From a virus: a stretch of DNA of 64,000 nucleotides. Below are positions 44,890 through 63,648 of the stretch, piece after piece. Both the position numbers and the translations under genes were made by a program. The first letter of the stretch is position 1, and each line of letters opens with the position of its first letter. The notes beneath the pieces are model-generated. The model was not told the DNA's origin. It ran no database searches and saw only the letters and a program-made list of their open reading frames with translations. The DNA lies in the IMG/VR virus record IMGVR_UViG_3300028392_001993, positions 1-64,000 of that record. One strand, given 5' to 3'.

Positions 44890-45069
44890 ATGAGCCGGAC
44901 ATTGATCTGGGTGTTGAGTTGGAGTGTGTTAGGACCAGTGCCTGAGTCGGGCGAACAAGCCAAGTTCAAAACTCAAGCAGAATGCGAACAGGCTCGAGTT
45001 CAAAAGCGTGAAGAATACCAGGCACAGAAAAAACAGATTGTGGCTAGTTGTCACCAGAGTACCAAATAG
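44890..45069 (+). CDS. Small late-type protein (59 aa, not in ORF track)
   Basis: TATAAATA upstream; MSRTLIWVLSW...CEQAR...SC. Confidence 0.5.
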   Translation: MSRTLIWVLSWSVLGPVPESGEQAKFKTQAECEQARVQKREEYQAQKKQIVASCHQSTK

Positions 45070-45070
45070 T

Positions 45071-45099
45071 TTGACATCAAATCAATTTTGTGGTATAAT
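45071..45099 (+). promoter_or_regulatory. Sigma70-like promoter for tmRNA
   Basis: TTGACA-17 nt-TATAAT. Confidence 0.8.
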
Positions 45100-45105
45100 A
45101 AATAC

Positions 45106-45442
45106 TTGAACAGCGTAAACTGTTACTGAGAAAAGGATTCAAGACCCGGGGGCAGTGCCCGGCAGGTCCACCATAAGCATACTTAAATCTCTACAAAACC
45201 GAAAGGTTGGGATCAGGGCTGGTACACCGGATTACTCTAGGGAAACCTATAAGTGCGGATAGACCATAGTATGCTTTTGATGGGCCTGACACAGGATCGA
45301 TTGGGTCAAGAGTACAAGTAATGGCGCTCGGTAGGCGATGACCGTTAATCAAGCAAAACAAGTATCTGCAAACGATGATACATACCTCTTAGCCGCAAAC
45401 GCCTAAGAGCGAGGCAGTTATGCCTTGTAACCAAAAATAGCA
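45106..45442 (+). ncRNA. ssrA: Circularly permuted (two-piece) tmRNA
   Basis: T arm and CAGGTCC-A-CCA (ends 45173) precede GGGCCTG (45282), pairing with G3.U70; tag frame 45368-45406 ANDDTYLLAANA*. Outer ends approximate. Confidence 0.85.
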
Positions 45443-45464
45443 ATAGGGACTTCGGTCCCTATTT

Positions 45465-46601: not shown

Positions 46602-46766
46602 ATGCAACATGCTATCAAATGTGACAATTGGGGAAAACCCGGCAAAAATGAAGTGGTGAGATTCATGCCTGTTAACTTGGCCAGGTTTAGAAACTGCCCA
46701 GACTGTGATCGTAAACGAATCACTGCTTGCAAAGATCCTGCTTGCAATCGAACCCGAAAGCCTTGA
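46602..46766 (+). CDS. Small Cys-rich protein (54 aa, not in ORF track)
   Basis: AAGGAG RBS; CPDC, C..PAC. Confidence 0.45.
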   Translation: MQHAIKCDNWGKPGKNEVVRFMPVNLARFRNCPDCDRKRITACKDPACNRTRKP

Positions 46767-46926
46767 CTCTTATACAATTCTCATATATAATACACTTATG
46801 AAACAAACAACTACAATCGTTACAATCGTTCGCTCAGAACATGAGTGGGATTGCCATTGGGGGCTTTGCCTGTAATACGAAAGTACTACCCTGCAAAGAC
46901 CCTCCACTTCGGAGGGTTTTCTTTTT
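46763..46926 (+). promoter_or_regulatory. Promoter, 25-aa leader ORF (46798-46875) and attenuator
   Basis: TTGACT-17-TATAAT; MKQTTTIVTIVRSEHEWDCHWGLCL*; terminator ACCCTCC/GGAGGGT + T-run; competing helix 46860-46869/46893-46902. Confidence 0.6.
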
Positions 46927-46931
46927 AGTGC

Positions 46932-46960
46932 TAGACCATAAATTGAAACTCTGCTACAAT
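46932..46960 (+). promoter_or_regulatory. Early-type promoter for RNA cluster
   Basis: TAGACC-17 nt-TACAAT with TG extension, same family as 36742/37114. Confidence 0.6.
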
Positions 46961-47046
46961 AGAACTTAACAAAGCAACAAAGTAGATCGATACTAGTTGT
47001 AACAGATCTTTAAAAATCGTATTTCATTTAGTCCTGGTAACAGGGA

Positions 47047-47271
47047 CTATATGAGAACACATTAGGGTTACCAGACCCGTTAGAGGCATTGGTAGAAGTG
47101 AATTGACACCGGCGGGTGTCCACTTGCTACCAGTCATGAAGCCGGCTCTCTACTGTAAAAAGTAGATCCAGAAAAGCGGCGGATCGTCTGGCAGTAATGA
47201 CCGTGGTGACTTGGTCTCGCAAGCCAAGCAGAACGAGATCCACAACGGTTCCCAAATGTTTTTTCATATGG
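47047..47271 (+). ncRNA. Stem-clamped structured RNA, unit 1 (unassigned)
   Basis: 17-nt arms 47047-47063/47255-47271 enclose about 190 nt with several hairpins. Confidence 0.6.
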
Positions 47272-47345
47272 TGGGTTCATCTAGAGGCCTAGGATAGTGC
47301 CCTTTCACGGCATTCACACCGGTTCGAATCCGGTACCCACTACCA
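47270..47345 (+). tRNA. tRNA-Glu(TTC)
   Basis: GTGCC-CTTTCAC-GGCAT arm; ACCGG/CCGGT T stem; CCA. Confidence 0.9.
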
Positions 47346-47778
47346 TACGAAAACACACTGGAGATAAGCAGGAACTTGTGGCCACGAGGTCGCCTCGTCC
47401 AGTGTGTTTTTATATGGTCACTATATAGAAATACATTGCCGAGGAGCGACGTCTTTACCATGGGCTCCGACCATAAAGAGAGGTAGTGTGTTTCTATATA
47501 GCAATCATATAGAAGTATTCTTGGCATAAGTCAAAGCGAGAGAAGAAGCCTAGTATCTGCAGATGCGAAAGTTTCAGTGGTGCAAGTCCCCTCCTAGGCC
47601 TGCTGTTGAGAGTGCTTCTATATGGTAGATGTTATAGTCAAGCATCGATAAGGTATCGTGTATGGACGCATACACTATTCGGGTCACAGCGGCCGGCGAC
47701 TGATCCTAATATAACTGCATCGGCTTTTGCACTCTTAGCGGAGGACGCATAAATTGGCATTCTCGGTGCTTGACTATG
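47342..47778 (+). ncRNA. Tandem stem-clamped RNA units 2-5 (unassigned)
   Basis: Back-to-back 16-20 bp stems of related sequence with unrelated internal loops. Confidence 0.6.
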
Positions 47779-47785
47779 ATATTTT

Positions 47786-47860
47786 GGTCTGATAGTATAT
47801 CGGTTAGTATCCCACACTGTCACTGTGGGGAGACGGGTTCGATTCCCGTTCAGACCGCCA
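47786..47860 (+). tRNA. tRNA-Asp(GTC)
   Basis: CCACA-CTGTCAC-TGTGG arm; GGTCTGA/TCAGACC; CCA. Confidence 0.9.
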
Positions 47861-48180
47861 AGTTTGAAGCCACACCGCCTGGGCACTTCTCTCAGTAATG
47901 AGACACTAGGTCCTGCAACCGTGGCTTCTCCCCAACGTTCCAGCGTCACTGGATAGTCTGACCCAGACGATGAGAAGTGTGATGACACACACGGGTGGTT
48001 CTGAAACGGCGAAGTTTCACTGAGCAATCAGCGGTCTAACCTAACCGGCGTTGGCAATACGAGAACGGTCCCTGTCGAGAAGCGGGTGGAAGGTGTGACG
48101 AAAATACTTGTGTGGCAGTCCATGACGAGCCTAACAAATTTTCTATCTCACTATAATTACCGCCGGGGGACGCAGAGCAC
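47861..48180 (+). ncRNA. Large pseudoknotted structured RNA candidate (possibly GOLLD-related)
   Basis: GAAGCCAC/GTGGCTTC stem whose loop CACTTCTC pairs with GAGAAGTG; GNRA hairpins; no credible ORF. Confidence 0.45.
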
Positions 48181-48184
48181 TTGA

Positions 48185-48421
48185 TCAAGCAGTGTGCTGA
48201 GCATTTGCGTACTCAATCCATTCTGAATTGATCTTGCCAGCATCGCCATTGTGAGATGCAGGGTCTGCATCGGGGTTGGCATTTTTCCATTCATTGTAAA
48301 CTTTAGTGGCTTCGTGCCAGTTTTGTTCACGAGCGGCATCATCTTTTATCCACGCATCAAAATCAAGTTTACCGTCATCAAATGTCCAAACACGTTTGTT
48401 AAAATCTGTCCAAGTTGCCAT
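48185..48421 (-). CDS. Hypothetical Trp-rich small protein
   Basis: 78-aa ORF following the radical SAM gene; GGAG-like RBS. Confidence 0.55.
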   Translation of the reverse strand: MATWTDFNKRVWTFDDGKLDFDAWIKDDAAREQNWHEATKVYNEWKNANPDADPASHNGDAGKINSEWIEYANAQHTA

Positions 48422-48442: not shown

Positions 48443-49645
48443 TTATCCGTTACGGGCAATCCAATCAGCCCAGAGCGCATGCCACTCTGGGAATACTTCA
48501 GCAAAACTTTCACTGCGGAGTTGGTCAAGTTTAGCATTATGATACCAAAACGATATTTGTTTTTCGTGGGTGTAATCCGGAGGAGTCCCCATCAAAAACT
48601 TAACAACTTCTCTAAATCGATCAATGGTTTTGAATTTTTCAGCCACTTTGAGTTTGAGTTCGTAAGGCATATATTGAATATTGTTGTGGGGTTCGTCTAA
48701 TACATAATTTTCAAAACTTATGGGCCATTTGCGTTTGAGCCCTTCGGCGTGTAGTTCATCCATGTCAAACACATTTAAAATAGTGGGACTGCAACGAATG
48801 TGTGTTTTTATGTTTGGATACGGGGCTACGTCTATTAGATACTTGTCAGTTACTGCTAGAACTTCGTCCCATTTGCTACCGTAACGTAAATAATCGTTTT
48901 TTGCCCCTACCCCATCAATACTGATAGCAAAATTAACCAGTTTGAATTCTTTGAAGTAGTCTACCAACTTAGGATCATAGATTGTGCCATTGGTATGTGT
49001 TCCGAGTATTTGATTCTTGGCGCCACCTGTACTGACTGCAGACTCTAGGATTTTGTAACTTAACGGAATCATCAATGGTTCGCCACCGTACAAGTCCCAA
49101 AATACCAGTTCTTTTTGCCACTCATCAAATGTGGCTTCAAGAGGTTTGTTATTTTTGTAGATAGTGGTATGAGGTTCCCATTTTTTTAACCAAATCTTAA
49201 ACGGTTTATCGTAGCCATCGTCCTTGTCAAATTCGTAGGCATCTTTGAACCACGATGTACTGGTAATTTCGTTGCAACTACGGCAGGCGTTGTTGCATTG
49301 TATGCCCGGTTTAATTATGATGACCCGGGGCTGATCTGGATGCGATTCAACATCAGCAAAGTCTAGATTTACTTGTTGCCGCATACTAACAACACCAATT
49401 TCCTCTTTCTGCCAACAACTATCACATTCTTTAATGCGTTCACCGTTTTCTAAATGTTGAACAAATTCTTGTCTATGCGGAGACTTCCACACCCGTTTAA
49501 GATCATCGTTAACATCAAACATATGATGATGTTCTGCTGTGGTATCTTTGTACCACCAGGTGCAAATCGGACAGGGACTGACCATGCCACTCATATCCAA
49601 CATAAGAGATAGTTCAGCAAGTTTACATTTGGTATCGTATTTCAT
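48443..49645 (-). CDS. Radical SAM protein with N-terminal SPASM-like Cys cluster
   Basis: C...L..G.V.PC; CNNACRSC; GGEPL; TNG; SIDG. Confidence 0.85.
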   Translation of the reverse strand: MKYDTKCKLAELSLMLDMSGMVSPCPICTWWYKDTTAEHHHMFDVNDDLKRVWKSPHRQEFVQHLENGERIKECDSCWQKEEIGVVSMRQQVNLDFADVESHPDQPRVIIIKPGIQCNNACRSCNEITSTSWFKDAYEFDKDDGYDKPFKIWLKKWEPHTTIYKNNKPLEATFDEWQKELVFWDLYGGEPLMIPLSYKILESAVSTGGAKNQILGTHTNGTIYDPKLVDYFKEFKLVNFAISIDGVGAKNDYLRYGSKWDEVLAVTDKYLIDVAPYPNIKTHIRCSPTILNVFDMDELHAEGLKRKWPISFENYVLDEPHNNIQYMPYELKLKVAEKFKTIDRFREVVKFLMGTPPDYTHEKQISFWYHNAKLDQLRSESFAEVFPEWHALWADWIARNG

Positions 49646-49748
49646 AACTATATTTAACGACACAACCTTTTGGTAATTTAATTAAAGTCATCCCCCCAAG
49701 GATGAGAAGTGCTATGACAAAAATCATCTGGTAAATATATCACGCAAC

Positions 49749-51704
49749 ATGACAGATTCTAAAAAACAAATTTTCGAAATTAAAACAGTTTCTGACAACG
49801 AGCCTGTGGTAATTGAAAATTCAATGGGCGAAAATTCGCCACATTTGGCCATACTAGAAACCATTGGTACTCTGAGTCGCGGTAGGCCTCAAAAAAATCT
49901 AGATCGAATAATTATCAATCCAGTTACAAAACAAACACGAGTAGCAATGGTATTGCTTCCTTATTGGTCCATACACCACGCACCGTATAATATTGCACGT
50001 CTGGTAGGTTTGGCAAAGGCTGCAGGATTTAGCAGTTGTGCATTTGACGTCAATGTGGAAACTTACAATTTAACAGACAAAAAAGAATTATGGCATTCAT
50101 ACCTGTCTTGGAAATGGGAACAGCCGGAATATTACTATGCAGATATACATCCGTTCATTGAATCTACTCTGTTAGATCAAATTGACAAGATTGTAGAATT
50201 CAAGCCAGATGTCATTGGATTTAGTATATACTATTGTAATAATGAGACTGTGGCCTGGGCGGTGCCAAAGATCAGAGAAAAGTTACCTAATGTAAAAATA
50301 ATAGTGGGCGGATCTCAAGTGATCCAAGGAAAACTTAAATATGCAGAATTATTTGATCACGTGGTCAAAGGTGAAGGAGAACAAGTGTTCCTTGACATCC
50401 TAGAGAAAATTGAAAACAAAACACCTATCTCTGAACGCTTTCTAAGTTATCCTAAAGATCAACGCATTGATCTAGATTCCATGCCGTGGCCAGACTACGC
50501 AGACTTTGACTTGAGTTTGTATCAGTATGGTGCTGCCGTAGGGTCAGAAATCAGTCGAGGGTGTATAGCAAAATGCGAGTACTGTATTGAAACACAATTT
50601 TGGCGTTATCGCGGCAGAGTTGCTACCACAGTAGTTGATGAAATTGAATATCAGTACAAAACATTTGGCGTTAGAGCCATACACTTTGTTGACAGTTTGG
50701 TCAATGGTAATTTAAAAGAGTTAAGAGCATTTGCACTCGGAGTAGTAGCAAAGGGCATGACTGACCTTGCATGGGCCGGTTATGCTCGATCCGACGGTCG
50801 AATGGATCTTGCATATCTGCAGGATTTAAAAAATGGTGGGTGTCACTTTTTAAATTTTGGAGTAGAGTCGGGTAGCAACAAGACACTTGCATTGATGAAG
50901 AAAAATGTCACCCGAGAAGAGATGGAACAAAATTTTAAGGATCTCAAAACAGTAGGCATTAACGCTTACAGTAATTGGATTGTTGGATTTCCCGGAGAGG
51001 AAATCGCCGACGTTGCAGACTCGTTGATTTTTTTATGGCGCACCAGAGATACTGCCATACGTCATTATAGTTTAAACTTATGTTACAACGAGCCGGGCAC
51101 TCCATTGGGAACCAATCCTGACAAGTTTAATATCAGTAGCACTGAGTGGGCCGGCAAATGGATCACTAAAGATTATCGCAATACCAATATACACCGACTG
51201 ATTAGATATAAATCTTTGTTAATATTCACCGCTCACATGCGTCGACATTTGGTTCGACCACACGAAGGTTGGGGGCTTGGGGGTATGGAACGTTACAATT
51301 TTGAAAATCACTACACGTTTTTGTACGATCCGAAGAATGCAAGAAATGTTATAGACTACGACGATTTTGATTACAACATTATAAAAATCAATGTCAATCC
51401 CGTGGCCGATAGTATGGTTAACGAAATATGGCCTTTGCTGAGAACTTTGTATCTTGCCTGGGGTGCATACGAGTTTAGTGTACGTTTTGATCAAGACGAG
51501 GATTTTAAAGAATTTGGAAATCAATTTGTTTTTTCGCCAACTTTTGAAGAAAAATTTAAATTCGATGGCAACGTTTGGTTTAAGATTGATGCCGCTGGCA
51601 ATTGGCAGGCCAAATTAGATTATGTATTTGATTCTGCTATTCCCAACTTGAACTTTGATCTACATTTTGATGAGACGGGAAATTGGGAAAGAATTTCCCG
51701 ATAG
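49749..51704 (+). CDS. B12-binding radical SAM protein
   Basis: IVGGSQ, GEGE, SRGCIAKCEYC, GVESGS, IVGFPGE. Confidence 0.9.
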   Translation: MTDSKKQIFEIKTVSDNEPVVIENSMGENSPHLAILETIGTLSRGRPQKNLDRIIINPVTKQTRVAMVLLPYWSIHHAPYNIARLVGLAKAAGFSSCAFDVNVETYNLTDKKELWHSYLSWKWEQPEYYYADIHPFIESTLLDQIDKIVEFKPDVIGFSIYYCNNETVAWAVPKIREKLPNVKIIVGGSQVIQGKLKYAELFDHVVKGEGEQVFLDILEKIENKTPISERFLSYPKDQRIDLDSMPWPDYADFDLSLYQYGAAVGSEISRGCIAKCEYCIETQFWRYRGRVATTVVDEIEYQYKTFGVRAIHFVDSLVNGNLKELRAFALGVVAKGMTDLAWAGYARSDGRMDLAYLQDLKNGGCHFLNFGVESGSNKTLALMKKNVTREEMEQNFKDLKTVGINAYSNWIVGFPGEEIADVADSLIFLWRTRDTAIRHYSLNLCYNEPGTPLGTNPDKFNISSTEWAGKWITKDYRNTNIHRLIRYKSLLIFTAHMRRHLVRPHEGWGLGGMERYNFENHYTFLYDPKNARNVIDYDDFDYNIIKINVNPVADSMVNEIWPLLRTLYLAWGAYEFSVRFDQDEDFKEFGNQFVFSPTFEEKFKFDGNVWFKIDAAGNWQAKLDYVFDSAIPNLNFDLHFDETGNWERISR

Positions 51705-56263: not shown

Positions 56264-56402
56264 ACGTTCAAAGTGCAACAGGAAACGCGGTCCTGTGCCT
56301 CACTCAAAACCGGCACAAACGGGCGGCCTCGGGGATGGCTTGTGTTCTTGTACATAAAAAAATCCGAGCGTATTAAAGCATTCTCTATCTGCAAGGAGAC
56401 AA

Positions 56403-57053
56403 GTGGGTTCATCCATGAAGAGTGCTTTAGTACACGCATTCCAAAGAGTGCGTAAATACTTTATGGAAATTATTGTTCACAAGCATTTTACTATCAGATC
56501 CGATGCTGATGTACTCAAACAATACAACACTCCAATCTGGGAAGTTGAGATCCGATCTGACATAATAGACTCGTCTGAGTTTGAGTCTGCATTGCGGTGC
56601 GATGATAATTTTCAAATGAATCCAGGACATAACTCTTTCTTGCGTGGTGCTTGTAACAGAACTGGAGCAGTTGCTGATTTGTTAAACGAGTCCCAGCAAG
56701 GGTTTTTGCTAGACCTTGTGTCCGAAACACCAGAATTTAAATCTAGATATCCTCGTAAAGATCAATATCAAACAAAAACACATTGGTTTGCTGATATAAT
56801 TAGGGATCAAGCAGGATTTGCTATGGGGCCGCATATTGACAATAGTCATATCATGGTGCAGATGGTGGTTAATTTGTTGCAAGACAATACAACCGCAACA
56901 GAATTTTATCAGTTTAACAATTCAGTGCCGTATTATCGTGCGCCACTCAAACGCAATCAAGGTATAGTGTTTGTGAACACCCCCGGCGCTGTACACAGAA
57001 TCGCCAACATTGATCAAACACGTTGGATCTTGTATGGTGGTCTAACAATATAA
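56403..57053 (+). CDS. 2OG-Fe(II)-like oxygenase (start uncertain)
   Basis: MGPHIDN...VH.I...RW; true start may be ATG 56463. Confidence 0.6.
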   Translation: MGSSMKSALVHAFQRVRKYFMEIIVHKHFTIRSDADVLKQYNTPIWEVEIRSDIIDSSEFESALRCDDNFQMNPGHNSFLRGACNRTGAVADLLNESQQGFLLDLVSETPEFKSRYPRKDQYQTKTHWFADIIRDQAGFAMGPHIDNSHIMVQMVVNLLQDNTTATEFYQFNNSVPYYRAPLKRNQGIVFVNTPGAVHRIANIDQTRWILYGGLTI

Positions 57054-57152: not shown

Positions 57153-58187
57153 GTGCTAAAACTTAATTATTGTGAATTTTACATAACCAATGTATGCAAT
57201 TTGAACTGCTCGCGTTGCAATAGATTTAACAACTATGCGTTCTCCGGACATTATAAATGGAACGAGTATGCTGAGGTATACAAAAGTTGGTCAGAAAAAC
57301 TAGATGTTGGCAGAATTGGCATCTTGGGCGGTGAGCCTATGCTCAATCCCGAATTTGATGTATGGGTTGAAGAAATTGCTAAACTTTGGCCCAGGGCCTC
57401 CATATTGATTATAACCAATGGAACTCAATTTCACCGTTGGCCTATGTTGTATAAGTTGCTAGAAAAATATCAAGGCAGAGTCAGAATTGATATTAATCGC
57501 CATGATATAAATGCTGAGGCGGAAGTAGTTCGCAATGTTGAACAATTTTTTCCCGGAGATTACAAAAAGTTTTATGTCAATGACGGGTATTACACACAAG
57601 GCCCTGACCATGTTAAGCATTTTAATTTTGCAGATAACGGAATAAAATATGAGGTTTGGGAAGACCAAACATACAAACTTGCATGGAGAGATCACAATCA
57701 GATCTTTGTTAGATATGGTCTTGCAAATACATTTAGTAAGATACCAATAGAACGTTATGATGATCGAGTTAAATTAGTTTATTGGAGTGATCCAACCGCC
57801 GCTATATCTATTTGCGGTGGCAAAGAATCTCATCATTTTCTCAATGGTAAACTTTACAAATGTAATGTCTCTGCAATATTACCAAATTTTATCAAGCAAT
57901 TTGATGTTGCTATGACAGATCAACAAAAAGAGTTAATTGAATCTTATGAACCAGCAGAAATAACATGGAACAATGATAAATTAACAGAATTTGTTGAAGG
58001 GTTACGGCAGACTCGATGTATCGAGCAGTGTCGGTTATGTCCAGATGTGCTAGATGCAAAAGAGTTTCAAGCAGGTATTAAAAAGGTACATATAAAAAAA
58101 ATACAGAATTTGGAGAGTGAGAAGCATTGGCGACTTCAGGAGACTGTAAATCTTCCACCTTACGGTATACGGGGTTCGAATCCCTGA
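57153..58187 (+). CDS. Radical SAM protein; 3' end reads through tRNA-Tyr
   Basis: CNLNCSRC, GGEPML, TNG; paralog of 4024-4923. Confidence 0.85.
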   Translation: MLKLNYCEFYITNVCNLNCSRCNRFNNYAFSGHYKWNEYAEVYKSWSEKLDVGRIGILGGEPMLNPEFDVWVEEIAKLWPRASILIITNGTQFHRWPMLYKLLEKYQGRVRIDINRHDINAEAEVVRNVEQFFPGDYKKFYVNDGYYTQGPDHVKHFNFADNGIKYEVWEDQTYKLAWRDHNQIFVRYGLANTFSKIPIERYDDRVKLVYWSDPTAAISICGGKESHHFLNGKLYKCNVSAILPNFIKQFDVAMTDQQKELIESYEPAEITWNNDKLTEFVEGLRQTRCIEQCRLCPDVLDAKEFQAGIKKVHIKKIQNLESEKHWRLQETVNLPPYGIRGSNP

Positions 58188-58574: not shown

Positions 58575-58618
58575 TCTGTGCGAAAGCAAGCTAGGTTCGA
58601 GCCCTAGCCGTGGAGCCA
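58538..58618 (+). tRNA. tRNA-Asn(GTT) with extended variable arm
   Basis: TCCACGG/CCGTGGA, GCAGA-CTGTTAA-TCTGT, extra TGC-GAAA-GCA hairpin; G73; CCA. Confidence 0.75.
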
Positions 58619-58633
58619 ATCATAAATAACTAT

Positions 58634-59239
58634 ATGTATAAATGTATAGAATGTGATAAATCGTTTAATAGTATTATGGCATTGACTGGACATAAACGAA
58701 TGCACGGTCAATCCAATGGTAAATCTAAAAAAATATTTTGCTCTTGTTTGATTACTCGCATAGCAATGCCATATCAATATTTGGCAGAGTATCAAGCAAA
58801 ATTGATTGGGTGTAAACAATGTAATAAACTGTTTAAACCAGATAGCAACAAAAAAACTTTTTGTTCTCAATCCTGTGCCGCAACATATAATAATACTGTT
58901 TACGTAAAACGCCTGAAAAAAGAAAAGCCACCAAAGATCATTCGAGAGAAAAAAGTTTACACAGAAACTGAGAAAAAATCTAAAAACGTTTCGGCAGTTC
59001 AAGCATATCGTGCTAGAAAATACAGTGCAACATTACCAGACACAGATCGCAAACTTATCAACAAGATTTACGAAATGTGCCCAAACGGATACGAAGTAGA
59101 TCATATTATTGCATTAAGCGAAGGTGGGCCTCATCATCAAGACAATTTGCAATACCTTCCTGCTATGGAAAATAGACGAAAGAATAGAACGCAAAATTAC
59201 AATAGAAGCCTTGCTATCAATTGGCAAGATATGTTATAA
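58634..59239 (+). mobile_element. HNH endonuclease with C2H2 zinc finger
   Basis: C..C.K.F.....L..H.R.H; EVDHII.LSEGG.H..DNLQ; AT-rich, between tRNAs. Confidence 0.85.
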
Positions 59240-61263: not shown

Positions 61264-61337
61264 GGGGGTGAAACTTTAAGGTGAAGTAACTGGCTTTTAA
61301 CCAGTAAAACTCGGATCGTTCCCGAGCACCCCTACCA
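61264..61337 (+). tRNA. tRNA-Lys(TTT), atypical T loop
   Basis: ACTGG-CTTTTAA-CCAGT arm; T loop ATCGTTC. Confidence 0.8.
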
Positions 61338-61377
61338 TATAAAAACACATTTGACAACCAGGGTGTTTTTATATGGT
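61334..61377 (+). repeat. Minimal stem clamp between tRNA-Lys and tRNA-His
   Basis: Perfect 15-bp ACCATATAAAAACAC/GTGTTTTTATATGGT, same family as units at 47342-47626. Confidence 0.85.
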
Positions 61378-61451
61378 GCGTGTCGTCAAGTGGTTAAGAC
61401 CTCGGATTGTGATTCCGATACACGTGGGTTCGAATCCCATCATGCACCCCA
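61375..61451 (+). tRNA. tRNA-His(GTG)
   Basis: G-1:C73; TCGGA-TTGTGAT-TCCGA arm. Confidence 0.9.
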
Positions 61452-61618: not shown

Positions 61619-61659
61619 TTAATAAAACTGTAATGTCTACAGAGTTAAATAAAAGGCAA

Positions 61660-62130
61660 ATGATGAAAAAACTAGACATTGACCAAGTGGCAGCGTTTAT
61701 CCGTGGCCAAACTCCCGAAACTCGAATCTATCTTGGTTGTGATAGTGAACGTGTGAAAGTTGACGGTAAATGGTATGCTGATTACATTCTTGCTATTGTA
61801 GTCCACATCAACGGCAACAACGGTTGCAAACTGTTTGGTGAAGTACAACGTGAACGCGACTGGGATCAACGGGCATCACGGCCAGCGTTGCGATTAATGA
61901 CCGAAGTTTACAAAGTAAGTGAATTATACTTGAAACTTGAAGAAGTGCTAGACGGTCGTGAGGTTGAAGTCCATCTTGATATTAACCCAGACGAGATGTA
62001 TGGCTCAAGTTGTGTGATCAGCCAAGCCGTTGGTTACATCAAAGGTGTATGCAATGTTATACCTTTTGTCAAGCCAGAAGCGTTTGCGGCTAGTTATGCC
62101 GCAGATAGATTCAAGAGTCTAGCGGCATAA
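61660..62130 (+). CDS. YkuK/DUF458-like RNase H-fold protein
   Basis: YLGCDS, RL..EV..., EVHLDIN, A.YAAD. Confidence 0.75.
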   Translation: MMKKLDIDQVAAFIRGQTPETRIYLGCDSERVKVDGKWYADYILAIVVHINGNNGCKLFGEVQRERDWDQRASRPALRLMTEVYKVSELYLKLEEVLDGREVEVHLDINPDEMYGSSCVISQAVGYIKGVCNVIPFVKPEAFAASYAADRFKSLAA

Positions 62131-62481: not shown

Positions 62482-62556
62482 CGGCCTTTAGTTCAACGGA
62501 TAGAATACGTGGCTTCGAACCATGTGATGGGAGTTCGATTCTCTCAGGGTCGGCCA
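62482..62556 (+). tRNA. tRNA-Arg(TCG)
   Basis: CGTGG-CTTCGAA-CCATG arm; CCA. Confidence 0.85.
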
Positions 62557-63597
62557 TCTATGTTCATATATTCGACGAACAGTTGATTCAAATTGATTTC
62601 TTGATTTTGGGTCTTGTTTGACTGACTGTATGGTGTCACATAATTTTTTTACAAATTGTTTTTGTGTTGGAGTTATTTGATACTGCTCGCATTGATCTTG
62701 TAGCATGTTGACCATGTCAATTCGTTCTTGCTTTGAAAATATTGCCCACCCAAGGTATTCGGGTTGAATCAAGTTGGTCACTCTAGTTGGTCTACGTTGT
62801 CGATTGCACCAATCCAGTGTGGGTACTAGTTGTTGTATGTTGAGTGCCTGTACAACAAAGTGAAAATTTATATCAGCCTCGGGCAATTGTTTAATCAACT
62901 GACTGGTATTATTGACAAAGTTATCCCATACAGCAGGATAACGCATGATTTCATAACCTTCTTTATATCCGTCTACACTGATTTGTAATTCTAAATTTTT
63001 GATTTGCTTTAGCCGGTCAAGATGTGAGTCTAGTATTACAGTGGCATTGGTCACAATGCGAAGTGATATTTGCTGTGCTATCACAAAATCCATAATTTCT
63101 AAATTGCCCTTGGTCAAGAAAAATTCGCCACCAATTATACTGATGCTTTCAATGTTATTGACTTTGGACAGCATCTCTAGTTGTTGTTGGGCAGTGTTGT
63201 TTTCGCGACTGAGATCAATGTTTTCTATTCCGATAATGAATCGTTCTTTGGATAGCGCGGTACTATACGGTGGCGAACACATTATACATTTTAAATTGCA
63301 CACATTGCTGGGCATGAGTTCATATCGAACTCCTGATATGTTGCTTAACGCCTGATTGGCATGATGTCTGTAACTGGTTTGATTCTGTGCCTCTTGGTGT
63401 TGACACACCGTACACCCATCGGGCCAATCAGTAGCCGATTGTAACTGTTGTATTTCGTTGCTGGCGTAATATTGTTCCAAGGTTTGATAGTGCTGGTCGG
63501 TTTTATAAACACAACAAGGCAAAATTTTTACTTGGGAATCTGGAGTGGTATCAAAACGAATATTGTGATGGATGGCCGCACAACGAAAATCAGTCAT
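62488..63597 (-). CDS. Radical SAM protein; 3' end runs antisense through tRNA-Arg
   Basis: N-terminal C...PCC; CNLKCIMC; GGEF; TNA; SVDG. Confidence 0.85.
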   Translation of the reverse strand: MTDFRCAAIHHNIRFDTTPDSQVKILPCCVYKTDQHYQTLEQYYASNEIQQLQSATDWPDGCTVCQHQEAQNQTSYRHHANQALSNISGVRYELMPSNVCNLKCIMCSPPYSTALSKERFIIGIENIDLSRENNTAQQQLEMLSKVNNIESISIIGGEFFLTKGNLEIMDFVIAQQISLRIVTNATVILDSHLDRLKQIKNLELQISVDGYKEGYEIMRYPAVWDNFVNNTSQLIKQLPEADINFHFVVQALNIQQLVPTLDWCNRQRRPTRVTNLIQPEYLGWAIFSKQERIDMVNMLQDQCEQYQITPTQKQFVKKLCDTIQSVKQDPKSRNQFESTVRRIYEHRWPTLRESNSHHMVRSHVFYPLN

Positions 63598-63648
63598 ACA
63601 ATATTTACTCACTATTATCCTCATAGAAAAATTCAATAACAAAATGCC

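What the first reader, a model, noticed from the sequence alone, without database searches (positions are those of the whole stretch)
47047..47778. Array of stem-clamped RNA cassettes interleaved with tRNAs
Five units: 47047-63/47255-71, 47342-61/47399-418, 47421-37/47485-501, 47504-21/47609-26, 47633-48/47763-78. Arms are 16-20 nt, related to each other (CATATAGAAA-CAC...GTG-TTTCTATATG), and most deviations from perfect complementarity are G.U wobbles, which points to RNA-level selection. Interiors are unrelated, about 37 to 190 nt. Units 2-4 are separated by only 2 nt, and terminal arms use the ACCA of the upstream tRNA or the GG of the next. Inference: a polycistronic precursor cut at constant stems into a set of variable small RNAs (decoys, antitoxin-like or guide RNAs). 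I know of no described system matching it.
Basis: partly seen in the sequence, partly recalled or inferred. Interest (0 to 1): 0.86.

Follow-up and report, generated by a model that had tools for sequence, protein, structure and literature searches.

The report
Clamped small-RNA cassettes in phage tRNA operons
A clade of uncultured freshwater giant phages inserts many unrelated small structured RNAs into its tRNA operons, each inside the same conserved 20-base-pair helix, a modular RNA cassette arrangement that matched no known RNA family or paper I searched.

Summary
Window 47046-47784 folds into five long closing helices around unrelated interiors, interleaved with tRNA-Glu and tRNA-Asp (z = -11.4). 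An empty copy of the helix joins tRNA-Lys to tRNA-His at 61333-61378.

In relatives from IMG/VR I found 285 such cassettes (257 unique) in 159 loci, carrying 242 different interiors in 159 sequence clusters. The helix has a median length of 20 bp. Across 60 cargo families, 15 of 20 pairs show compensatory changes (0 of 500 shuffles reach this). It carries a recurrent A.C mismatch and a recurrent U.G wobble. Elsewhere G.U outnumbers A.C by 50 to 14 on the tRNA strand.

Genomes with identical tRNA-Glu carry different cassette sets. Cargos evolve as structured RNAs, and about one family in six carries a tRNA T-loop motif. None of the cargos scanned matches Rfam. The phages encode no RNase III, Ro, RtcB, Nop or ToxN.

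Best reading: a shared processing and stabilising handle, probably cut by host RNase III, releases variable small RNAs from a polycistronic tRNA precursor. The arms also let cassettes be gained and lost by recombination. Transcription, cleavage and cargo function are untested. The same scan's first-stage readers also noted this array and the empty clamp on this genome.

The parts
46932..46960 (+). Promoter-like site (TAGACC, 17 nt, TACAAT with an upstream TG) about 85 nt before unit 1. It follows the leader and terminator-like hairpin at 46763-46926.
   Evidence: Consensus scan only. The homologous sequence is conserved in G001. No terminator-like site lies between here and 48170.
47046..47272 (+). 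Unit 1. Clamp arms lie at about 47046-47066 and 47252-47272, around a conserved cargo RNA of about 185 nt. The 3' arm overlaps the first bases of tRNA-Glu.
   Evidence: Fold. Homologous cargo of 175-225 nt occurs in many relatives. Its clamp covaries: G003 has ACTATATGTAAACACATTAGGG/CCCTAATGTGTTTTCATATAGT, and G004 has TATTTTAAAATGTATTAAAGG/CCTTTAGTATGTTTTAAAATA with three G.U pairs. G001 keeps the cargo with only a short weak stem.
47270..47345 (+). tRNA-Glu (UUC). Its 5' GG closes unit 1 and its 3' ACCA opens unit 2.
   Evidence: ARAGORN and Rfam.
47342..47418 (+). Unit 2: a 21-bp clamp around a 35-nt cargo.
   Evidence: Fold -33.7 kcal/mol, z = -5.4. The same cargo, with one base changed, follows the identical tRNA-Glu in L124. 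A related cargo follows tRNA-Ala in L214.
47420..47502 (+). Unit 3: a 20-bp clamp around a 41-nt cargo. The cargo is a hairpin whose loop UCUUUA could pair with the 3' UAAAGA, a possible pseudoknot seen by eye.
   Evidence: Fold -34.2 kcal/mol on the + strand against -22.6 on the - strand. The same cargo follows tRNA-Glu directly in L119, and the family recurs after tRNA-Lys.
47502..47628 (+). Unit 4: a 23-25-bp clamp with six G.U pairs around a 77-nt cargo that contains a T-arm-like hairpin.
   Evidence: Fold -41.7 kcal/mol on the + strand against -27.2 on the - strand. Homologues occur in L122, L119 and L101-type loci, with compensatory changes in an internal 5-bp hairpin seen by eye.
47627..47784 (+). 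Unit 5: a separate conserved RNA family of about 146 nt with its own closing helix of about 21 bp (TATAGTCAAGCATCG / CGGTGCTTGACTATA).
   Evidence: 33 IMG/VR loci carry it, in differing tRNA contexts. The consensus fold shows a near-invariant closing helix and 12 internal pairs with compensatory changes.
47786..47860 (+). tRNA-Asp (GUC).
   Evidence: ARAGORN and Rfam.
47861..48170 (+). A further conserved non-coding stretch of about 310 nt in the same putative transcript. It has no clamp.
   Evidence: Conserved in G001, G003 and G004. In G004 it is split by tRNA-Glu, another RNA and tRNA-Tyr. It has no Rfam match. Its fold is only weakly better than shuffles, z = -1.6.
61333..61378 (+). Empty clamp: a 19-bp helix with an 8-nt loop. 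It fills the whole spacer from the ACCA of tRNA-Lys to the first bases of tRNA-His.
   Evidence: -20.3 kcal/mol, z = -5.2. At the same site, relatives hold an empty clamp or unrelated cargos of about 25 to 72 nt.
61633..62130 (+). RNase H-like protein gene (PF04308, DUF458/YkuK family) lying between tRNA-Leu and tRNA-Gly. It is only a candidate partner, and no link to the clamp is shown.
   Evidence: Pfam E = 1.9e-15. Present inside the tRNA island of all four long relatives and in 34 of 158 fetched loci. The family's function is uncharacterised (PMC3985635).

Best explanation
The array belongs to a previously unlisted family of modular small-RNA cassettes in the tRNA operons of an uncultured freshwater jumbo-phage clade. 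Each cassette has two parts. The first is a closing helix of about 20 bp with conserved sequence, 5' ACCATATAAAAACACAYT paired with 3' ARTGTGTTTCTATATGGT, often starting at the ACCA of the upstream tRNA and ending at the next tRNA. The second is a variable, structured cargo RNA of about 25-225 nt.

Shown here: the helix is a selected structure on the tRNA strand, the cargo is hypervariable and evolves as structured RNA, and cassette content differs between close relatives.

Inferred: cassettes are transcribed with the tRNAs as one precursor. The two-turn helix acts as a common processing and stabilising handle, most likely cut by the host's double-strand-specific RNase III, as in rRNA operons. 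RNase P and exonucleases would then trim the neighbouring tRNAs, and each cargo would be left as a small RNA with a protected terminal stem. At the DNA level the two conserved arms provide portable homology, so cassettes can be gained, lost and moved by recombination.

Cargo function is unknown. The turnover pattern and the tRNA-like subset make host-directed decoy or mimic RNAs the leading guess.
For: Structure:
- Five helices in one fold, z = -11.4.
- Each unit folds far better than shuffles.
- Units 3 and 4 are 11.6 and 14.5 kcal/mol more stable on the tRNA strand than on the opposite strand.

Family:
- 285 cassettes (257 unique) in 159 loci, with 242 unique interiors in 159 clusters.
- 139 of the 257 start at a tRNA's 3' end.

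Selection on the helix:
- A cassette's own arms pair at 18.5 of 20 positions, against 16.1 for arms from different cassettes; 0 of 10000 permutations reach this.
- On 60 cargo families, 91.8% of cells are paired against 83.6% when shuffled. 15 of 20 pairs have changes on both sides. The covariation score is 0.268 against 0.124. No shuffle of 500 reaches any of these values, and sliding the register drops pairing to 31-56%.
- Outside the two recurrent non-Watson-Crick positions, G.U outnumbers A.C 50 to 14.

Length: median 20 bp, interquartile range 19-22. From my own knowledge, this is about the minimal size of an RNase III substrate.

Operon context: a promoter-like site upstream and no terminator-like site inside.

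Cargo under selection:
- Unit 5 has 12 compensated internal pairs.
- T-stems in one cargo family show four different compensated variants.
- Cargo folds average z = -0.52, p = 3e-8.

Modularity:
- W, L119 and L124 have 100% identical tRNA-Glu, yet hold U2+U3+U4, U3+U4' and U2 respectively. L117 holds none and L122 holds U4 only.
- The tRNA-Lys site holds an empty clamp or unrelated cargos.
- The same cargo family appears behind different tRNAs.
Against:
- The phages encode no RNase III or dsRNA-binding domain, so the enzyme would have to be the host's, and the host is unknown.
- The arms are more conserved in sequence than a generic dsRNA substrate needs. Several pairs are invariant in 60 families. 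Unit 5's helix stays constant while its internal stems covary. A recurrent A.C mismatch and U.G wobble are retained.
- All of this fits a sequence-specific reader, or homogenisation of left and right arms at the DNA level, as well as it fits RNase III.
- Direct evidence for cassette exchange is limited. The seven locus pairs with at least 90% identical flanks on both sides of the tRNA-Lys site all carried the same cargo.
Confidence: 0.55

Rival explanations
1. The clamp is a sequence-specific handle read by a dedicated protein rather than by generic RNase III. It would load, cut or protect all cargos in the same way, as Cas6 uses CRISPR repeats or Ro uses Y RNA stems. The reader could be phage-encoded; the RNase H-like DUF458 gene inside the tRNA island is one candidate.
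For: - Several helix pairs are invariant or nearly so across 60 cargo families.
- The A.C mismatch at position 9 and the U.G wobble at position 17 recur across families.
- Unit 5's helix is invariant while its inner stems covary.
- DUF458 lies inside the tRNA island of all four long relatives, and it was the window protein found in the most tRNA-island loci.
Against: - Nothing links DUF458 to the clamp.
- A PHROG family (phrog_11311) matches the DUF458 protein, so it also occurs in other phages, while no cultured phage shows the clamp by blastn.
- Arm conservation could reflect recent spread and gene conversion.
- No known RNA-handle proteins (TROVE, Nop, dsrm, RtcB) were found.
Confidence: 0.2
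2. The clamp is only a spacer or insulator hairpin that helps neighbouring tRNAs fold and mature. The interiors are mostly decaying tRNA fragments or filler trapped in its loop, with no function of their own.
For: - The empty clamp alone fills the Lys-His spacer in several phages.
- T-loop motifs (GGTTC[GA]) and GTAGC are the most enriched words in cargos: 26 and 22 of 151 families, against about 7 expected.
- In about 15 families a T-arm abuts the 3' arm, as it would an acceptor stem.
Against: - Cargos are conserved between divergent phages and show compensatory changes.
- Most families have no tRNA-like feature.
- Arrays of up to three cassettes and up to eight cassettes per locus are hard to explain as filler.
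Confidence: 0.12
3. The repeats act as DNA rather than RNA: terminal inverted repeats of small mobile elements, a recombination or nuclease target, or a protein-binding palindrome.
For: - The arms are conserved inverted repeats.
- Cassette presence and absence varies between close relatives.
- HNH and GIY-YIG nuclease genes lie in or near these tRNA islands (first-stage note e1-5833492).
- The A.C and U.G positions are mirror images on the two strands, so they do not identify a strand.
Against: - Outside those two positions, G.U outnumbers A.C 50 to 14 on the tRNA strand.
- Units 3 and 4 fold much better on the + strand.
- Helices extend with cargo-specific pairs beyond the shared motif.
- By eye, cargos share no common ends and show no target-site duplications.
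- All cassettes were recovered in the orientation of the tRNA genes.
Confidence: 0.08
4. The array is a guide-RNA array of the CRISPR or TIGR kind, or an antitoxin array of the type III toxin-antitoxin kind.
For: - Conserved repeats alternate with variable segments.
- The 3' arm of one unit and the 5' arm of the next can also pair locally (17 bp).
- Many cargos of 35-50 nt are about the size of type III antitoxin repeats (own knowledge).
Against: - Variable parts range from 25 to over 200 nt and are structured.
- Arms covary across the cargo, not within a junction.
- Most cassettes are solitary: 254 of 267 runs.
- No Nop/Tas or ToxN gene was found (the ToxN search had no positive control).
- There is no Rfam CRISPR or ToxI hit.
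- Cargos show no complementarity to the phage genome.
Confidence: 0.03

Closest known systems
RNase III processing stems of bacterial rRNA operons
   Same: Sequences on both sides of a stable RNA pair into a helix of about two turns. The helix sits in a polycistronic precursor that also carries tRNAs, and cutting it releases the enclosed RNA (own knowledge).
   Different: Here one helix sequence is reused around more than 150 unrelated small cargos and also occurs empty. It is conserved in sequence and has recurrent non-Watson-Crick positions. Cleavage is not shown.
Stable small RNAs (species 1 and 2) in the phage T4 tRNA gene cluster
   Same: Small non-tRNA RNAs of unknown function are co-transcribed with phage tRNAs. 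T4 species 1 RNA was reported as an RNase III substrate in vitro. This is from my own memory of 1970s papers, which the held library did not return.
   Different: As far as I recall, T4 has two fixed RNAs, with no shared clamp and no cargo diversity. No cultured phage in the collection shows the clamp.
Bacterial Y RNAs (YrlA)
   Same: A long stem formed by the 5' and 3' ends carries a module that can mimic tRNA T and D arms (PMC4201824). A subset of cargos here have T-arms.
   Different: Y RNAs are defined by binding Ro60/Rsr and are encoded next to it. No TROVE gene was found in the two complete relatives or in this record. The clamp consensus lacks the GNCGAA motif, and there are no Rfam hits. 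Most cargos are not tRNA-like.
GOLLD and ROOL RNAs of phage tRNA islands
   Same: They are non-coding RNAs of unknown function embedded among phage tRNAs, and GOLLD was first described from lake metagenomes (10.1101/2024.12.08.627333). GOLLD occurs in relatives of this phage, with a clamp cassette starting 4-5 nt after it in L139 and L173.
   Different: GOLLD is one large conserved RNA. The window region has no GOLLD match and shares only clamp arms with the GOLLD loci.
Integron cassettes and CRISPR or TIGR arrays
   Same: Constant flanking elements frame exchangeable variable units.
   Different: Those systems have dedicated integrases or effectors and act through DNA recombination sites or short unstructured guides. 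Nop/Tas was searched for and not found here. The variable units are structured RNAs, and each unit's two arms pair with each other.

Membership tests
RNase III processing stem (rRNA-operon type) | Helix of about 20 bp or more, formed by the sequences flanking the released RNA | tested here: met
   Median 20 bp, interquartile range 19-22, over about 250 cassettes. The five window units have 18-25 bp.
RNase III processing stem (rRNA-operon type) | Lies inside a polycistronic precursor | tested here: inconclusive
   A promoter-like site lies upstream, no terminator-like site lies inside, and gaps to tRNAs are 0-7 nt. No transcript data were available.
RNase III processing stem (rRNA-operon type) | Staggered double-strand cleavage by RNase III | not testable with these tools
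   This needs RNA-end mapping or an enzyme assay. No phage RNase III was found, so the enzyme would be the host's.
Y RNA / YrlA | Encoded next to, and bound by, Ro60/Rsr (TROVE domain) | tested here: not met
   No TROVE match in G000, G003 or G004; the control genomes rang.
Y RNA / YrlA | tRNA-like T and D arm module on a terminal stem | tested here: inconclusive
   Canonical T-arm hairpins occur in 7 of 152 cargo families, and the GGTTC word in 26 of 151. Most cargos lack it. No Rfam match.
CRISPR array | Direct repeats separated by unstructured spacers of uniform length | tested here: not met
   Cargos are 25 to over 200 nt and structured. Pairing runs across the cargo. The only CRISPR-DR hit lies outside the array, on the other strand, at 20.8 bits against a 47-bit threshold. 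cas genes were not searched for.
TIGR-Tas array | Tas protein with a Nop domain, and short tandem guide units | tested here: not met
   No Nop domain in G000, G003 or G004; the control genomes rang. Unit sizes do not fit.
Type III toxin-antitoxin antitoxin array (ToxI type) | Tandem near-identical repeats next to a ToxN-family gene | tested here: not met
   Cargos are unrelated to each other. No ToxN match was found, but that search had no positive control. No Rfam hit. Mimicry of a host antitoxin was not tested.
MITE or other small transposable element | Terminal inverted repeats around a shared interior, with target-site duplications | tested here: not met
   159 unrelated interior clusters. 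By eye there are no shared cargo ends or duplications. The G.U over A.C bias is specific to one strand.
GOLLD RNA | Match to RF02032 | tested here: not met
   No match in the window or in G000, although relatives score above 200 bits.

The most novel reading that the evidence does not exclude
The clamp is the common handle of a phage RNA-cassette system. A dedicated reader recognises its conserved bases, its A.C mismatch and its U.G wobble. This would be an RNA-level counterpart of an integron or anti-defence island, carried inside tRNA operons.
Probability: 0.3. Interest if true: 0.92.

Novelty: new variant of a known kind. Interest (0 to 1): 0.8.

Why it matters
If the cargos are released as stable RNAs, these abundant lake phages carry a large, fast-changing repertoire of small non-coding RNAs whose existence and purpose are unknown. 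tRNA islands would then be hubs of RNA-based host manipulation, not only codon supplements.

The clamp would also be a natural, portable expression and stabilisation scaffold for arbitrary small RNAs. That parallels engineered tRNA-guide RNA arrays and RNA scaffolds.

The family gives a concrete handle, a 40-nt signature, for mining phage metagenomes for new functional RNAs. Its physical association with GOLLD in some relatives may help with the long-open question of what ornate phage RNAs near tRNAs do.

Tried and rejected
- **Rfam.** Gathering scores on the whole window, and E up to 10 on 46700-48300, returned only the two tRNAs and chance hits. Five relatives' loci, which my cassette table lists as holding 31 cassettes, gave no cargo match. 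One near-threshold Dicty_Class_I hit in L157 was not followed up.
- **GOLLD.** It is present in relatives but not in this genome, and it shares nothing with the window region except clamp arms.
- **Protein partners searched and not found** in this record and two complete relatives: RNase III (two models), dsrm, TROVE/Ro, RtcB, Nop and ToxN.
- **Flanking protein as an anchor.** The neighbouring radical SAM gene is not conserved in IMG/VR, so relatives were reached through polB, the unit 5 core and the arm pattern instead.
- **Cultured phages.** blastn of the array and of the empty clamp found only tRNA matches and chance hits.
- **Bacterial genomes.** The pattern scan was dominated by single matches, as expected by chance in a collection this large. 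True cassettes lay only in a few contigs; the three whose titles were shown come from freshwater metagenome bins labelled Planktophila, Polynucleobacter and Crocinitomicaceae. These look like mis-binned phage contigs, so the host was not identified.
- **Cargo complementarity to the phage's own genome.** Only chance-level matches.
- **Test for cargo swaps between nearly identical flanks at the tRNA-Lys site.** Only seven qualifying pairs, all with the same cargo, so this was uninformative.
- **A looser arm search** produced mostly false or mis-registered pairs and was discarded.
- **Literature.** Searches found no description of the clamp.
- **PDB sequence search of the DUF458 protein.** No match.

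Full report
**Where the window comes from.** The window is the first 64 kb of a 178-kb virus record. CheckV rates the record 51% complete. Its family B DNA polymerase has 84-97% identical relatives in hundreds of IMG/VR contigs. These include complete genomes of 347 and 364 kb with terminal repeats. The nearest cultured phages, Sinorhizobium phage Phosso and Agrobacterium phage Atu_ph07, are only about 50% identical in that protein. The window carries 23 tRNA genes and a permuted tmRNA.

**The observation.** Folding 47030-47870 gives five long closing helices around unrelated interiors, separated by tRNA-Glu and tRNA-Asp. The MFE is -314.8 kcal/mol against -257.7 for shuffles, z = -11.4. The repeat finder recovers the arm pairs.
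- The arm consensus occurs 7 times in the window, against 0.08 expected. In the whole record it occurs only in this array and at 61334-61377.
- At 61334-61377 the helix, with an 8-nt loop, fills the entire spacer between tRNA-Lys and tRNA-His.
- Units 1-4 share the motif. Unit 5 has a different arm sequence but the same architecture.
- A promoter-like site lies at 46932-46960, and no terminator-like site lies within the array.
- Units 3 and 4 fold 11.6 and 14.5 kcal/mol better on the tRNA strand than on the opposite strand.

**Relatives.** In G001 units 2-4 are absent. The cargo of unit 1 is kept with only a weak stem, and unit 5 is kept with its helix. In G003 and G004 the unit 1 cargo sits in clamps whose sequences differ from the window's but stay complementary; G004's has three G.U pairs. 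After tRNA-Lys, four genomes have the clamp with an 8-nt loop or with unrelated cargos of about 59-72 nt. G001 shows a triple compensatory change, TAA/TTA to AGC/GCT.

**Size of the family.** I scanned IMG/VR with the unit 5 core (33 loci) and with the 5' arm pattern (over 120 stretches). Together with the earlier loci this gave 159 loci and 1.4 Mb.
- A detector that treats G.U and A.C alike found 285 cassettes, 257 of them unique.
- The cassettes carry 242 unique interiors that fall into 159 blast clusters.
- Interiors are mostly 25-100 nt, with a second class at 175-225 nt, the unit 1 RNA.
- 139 of the 257 begin at the 3' end of a tRNA, 82 of them at tRNA-Lys. The search pattern favours that site.
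- Most cassettes stand alone. There are 11 doublets and 2 triplets, one of which is this window, and a locus can hold up to eight.

**Is the helix selected?** A cassette's own arms pair at 18.5 of 20 positions, against 16.1 for arms from different cassettes; 0 of 10000 permutations reach this. I aligned one cassette from each of 60 cargo families (A1).
- 91.8% of cells are paired, against 83.6% in shuffles.
- 15 of 20 pairs show changes on both sides.
- The covariation score is 0.268 against 0.124.
- No shuffle of 500 reaches any of these values, and sliding the register drops pairing to 31-56%.
- These sequences are related, so the shuffle counts are not probabilities. The slid controls and the many pair types argue for a real helix.
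- Helix length is tightly distributed: median 20 bp, interquartile range 19-22.

**Two features beyond simple pairing.** Position 9 is an A.C mismatch in 37 of 60 families, and position 17 is a U.G wobble in 41 of 60. These two mirror each other on the two strands, so they do not identify a strand. At all other positions G.U outnumbers A.C 50 to 14 on the tRNA strand. Several pairs are invariant across all 60 families.

**Cargos.** They are not filler.
- Unit 5 is a conserved RNA of about 146 nt in 33 loci. Its closing helix is almost invariant, while 12 internal pairs show compensatory changes.
- One cargo family keeps a T-arm through four different compensated stem variants.
- Cargo folds are on average more stable than shuffles: mean z = -0.52, p = 3e-8.
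- The most enriched words in cargos are GGTTC[GA], the tRNA T-loop, in 26 of 151 families against 7 expected, and GTAGC in 22 against 7.6.
- In about 15 families a T-arm abuts the clamp's 3' arm. The clamp then stands where an acceptor stem would. So a subset is tRNA-like, but most are not.
- No cargo among the 31 cassettes scanned in relatives matches an Rfam family, nor do the window's.
- The window's cargos have no significant complementarity to the phage's own genome.

**Modularity.** W, L119 and L124 have identical tRNA-Glu and near-identical units 1 and 5. Between tRNA-Glu and unit 5, however, they carry U2+U3+U4, U3 plus a variant U4, and U2 only. L117 has none, and L122 has U4 behind a different tRNA-Glu.
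- In L119 the first cassette's 5' arm is the outer part of the window's U2 arm joined to the inner part of U3's arm. That is what recombination between arms would produce.
- Cargo families recur behind different tRNAs.
- A stricter test, requiring at least 90% identity on both flanks of the tRNA-Lys site, found only seven pairs, all with the same cargo. Recent exchange is therefore not directly caught.

**Mechanism.** The architecture is that of rRNA operons: a two-turn helix made from the flanks of a stable RNA, inside a precursor that also carries tRNAs. The most economical reading is cleavage by host RNase III. RNase P and exonucleases would then finish the tRNAs, and each cargo would keep a protective terminal stem.
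- The phages encode no RNase III, dsRNA-binding domain, Ro, RtcB, Nop or ToxN.
- The sequence conservation of the arms, the retained A.C and U.G, and the invariant unit 5 helix leave real room for a sequence-specific reader.
- An RNase H-like DUF458 protein is encoded inside the tRNA island in all four long relatives. Its family is uncharacterised (PMC3985635). It is a lead only.
- None of transcription, cleavage or cargo function is shown.

**Comparison with known systems.**
- It works most like RNase III processing stems, and it recalls the stable small RNAs of the T4 tRNA cluster (own knowledge; not found in the library).
- It resembles Y RNAs in having a terminal stem plus, sometimes, a tRNA-like module (PMC4201824). 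It fails the defining Ro association.
- It is not a CRISPR, TIGR or ToxI array, and it is not a MITE (see the membership table).
- GOLLD RNA occurs in relatives' tRNA islands, with a clamp cassette starting 4-5 nt after it in L139 and L173. GOLLD is absent from this record.
- I found no paper or Rfam family describing a shared clamp with hypervariable cargo.
- First-stage readers of this scan noted the same array from another window, and the empty clamp, on this same genome. I found no note of it on other DNA.

**Verdict.** The feature is real, widespread in an abundant uncultured phage clade, and structurally well supported. Its mechanism is inferred by analogy, and its biological role is open. 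I class it as a new variant of a known kind (processing helices in stable-RNA operons). There is a substantial chance, about 0.3, that it is a distinct cassette system with its own reader.

Noticed in passing
window 47861-48170: A conserved non-coding stretch of about 310 nt follows tRNA-Asp. It is present in G001, G003 and G004. In G004 it is split into two parts by tRNA-Glu, another conserved RNA and tRNA-Tyr. It has no Rfam match, and its single-sequence fold is only weakly better than shuffles (z = -1.6).
   Followed up: partly
L130:70-535(-), L139:1864-2326(+), L173:2633-3098(+): Relatives carry GOLLD RNA (above 200 bits). Rfam places a tRNA hit inside the GOLLD match in L130 and L139. 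In L139 and L173 a clamp cassette starts 4-5 nt after the GOLLD 3' end. This genome's 178-kb record has no GOLLD.
   Followed up: partly
window 61633-62130: An RNase H-like DUF458/YkuK-family protein (PF04308) is encoded between tRNA-Leu and tRNA-Gly, 15 nt and 7 nt from them. It has the same island location in all four long relatives. The family's function is uncharacterised.
   Followed up: partly
window 45067-45444: A permuted (two-piece) tmRNA gene lies 1.6 kb upstream of the array. Relatives carry alpha- or beta-proteobacterial-type permuted tmRNAs, with tags such as ANDEKFLMAA.
   Followed up: no
window 47270-47345 and 47786-47860 compared with relatives: tRNA-Glu and tRNA-Asp are only 64-71% identical between phages whose unit 5 RNA is 87-90% identical. 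The tRNA genes themselves seem to be replaced within a conserved non-coding framework.
   Followed up: no
window 56370-56433: A 19-bp helix with a 26-nt loop (GTATTAAAGCATTCTCTAT / ATGAAGAGTGCTTTAGTAC) lies upstream of the main tRNA cluster. It resembles the AAGCATTCT/AGAGTGCTT clamp variants seen in relatives, for example in L094 and L159. It may be a divergent cassette, but it overlaps the start of ORF 56403-57053.
   Followed up: no
window 58610-59239: A 209-aa protein with an N-terminal C2H2 zinc finger and a C-terminal HNH nuclease motif is encoded inside the tRNA cluster. It is most likely a homing-type endonuclease.
   Followed up: no
window 46763-46926: A strong promoter-like site (TTGACT, 17 nt, TATAAT) is followed by a short leader and a terminator-like hairpin, just upstream of the array's own promoter-like site. 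Another first-stage note reads this as an attenuator.
   Followed up: partly
L198:4094-4286(-), L129:926-1123(-): Group I intron matches (57-65 bits) occur inside relatives' tRNA islands.
   Followed up: no
window 48443-49663(-), 49749-51704, 57153-58187, 62488-63642(-): Four radical SAM genes surround and interrupt the tRNA islands. One has an N-terminal SPASM domain and one a B12-binding domain. They are poorly conserved among relatives (4-11 of 158 loci).
   Followed up: no
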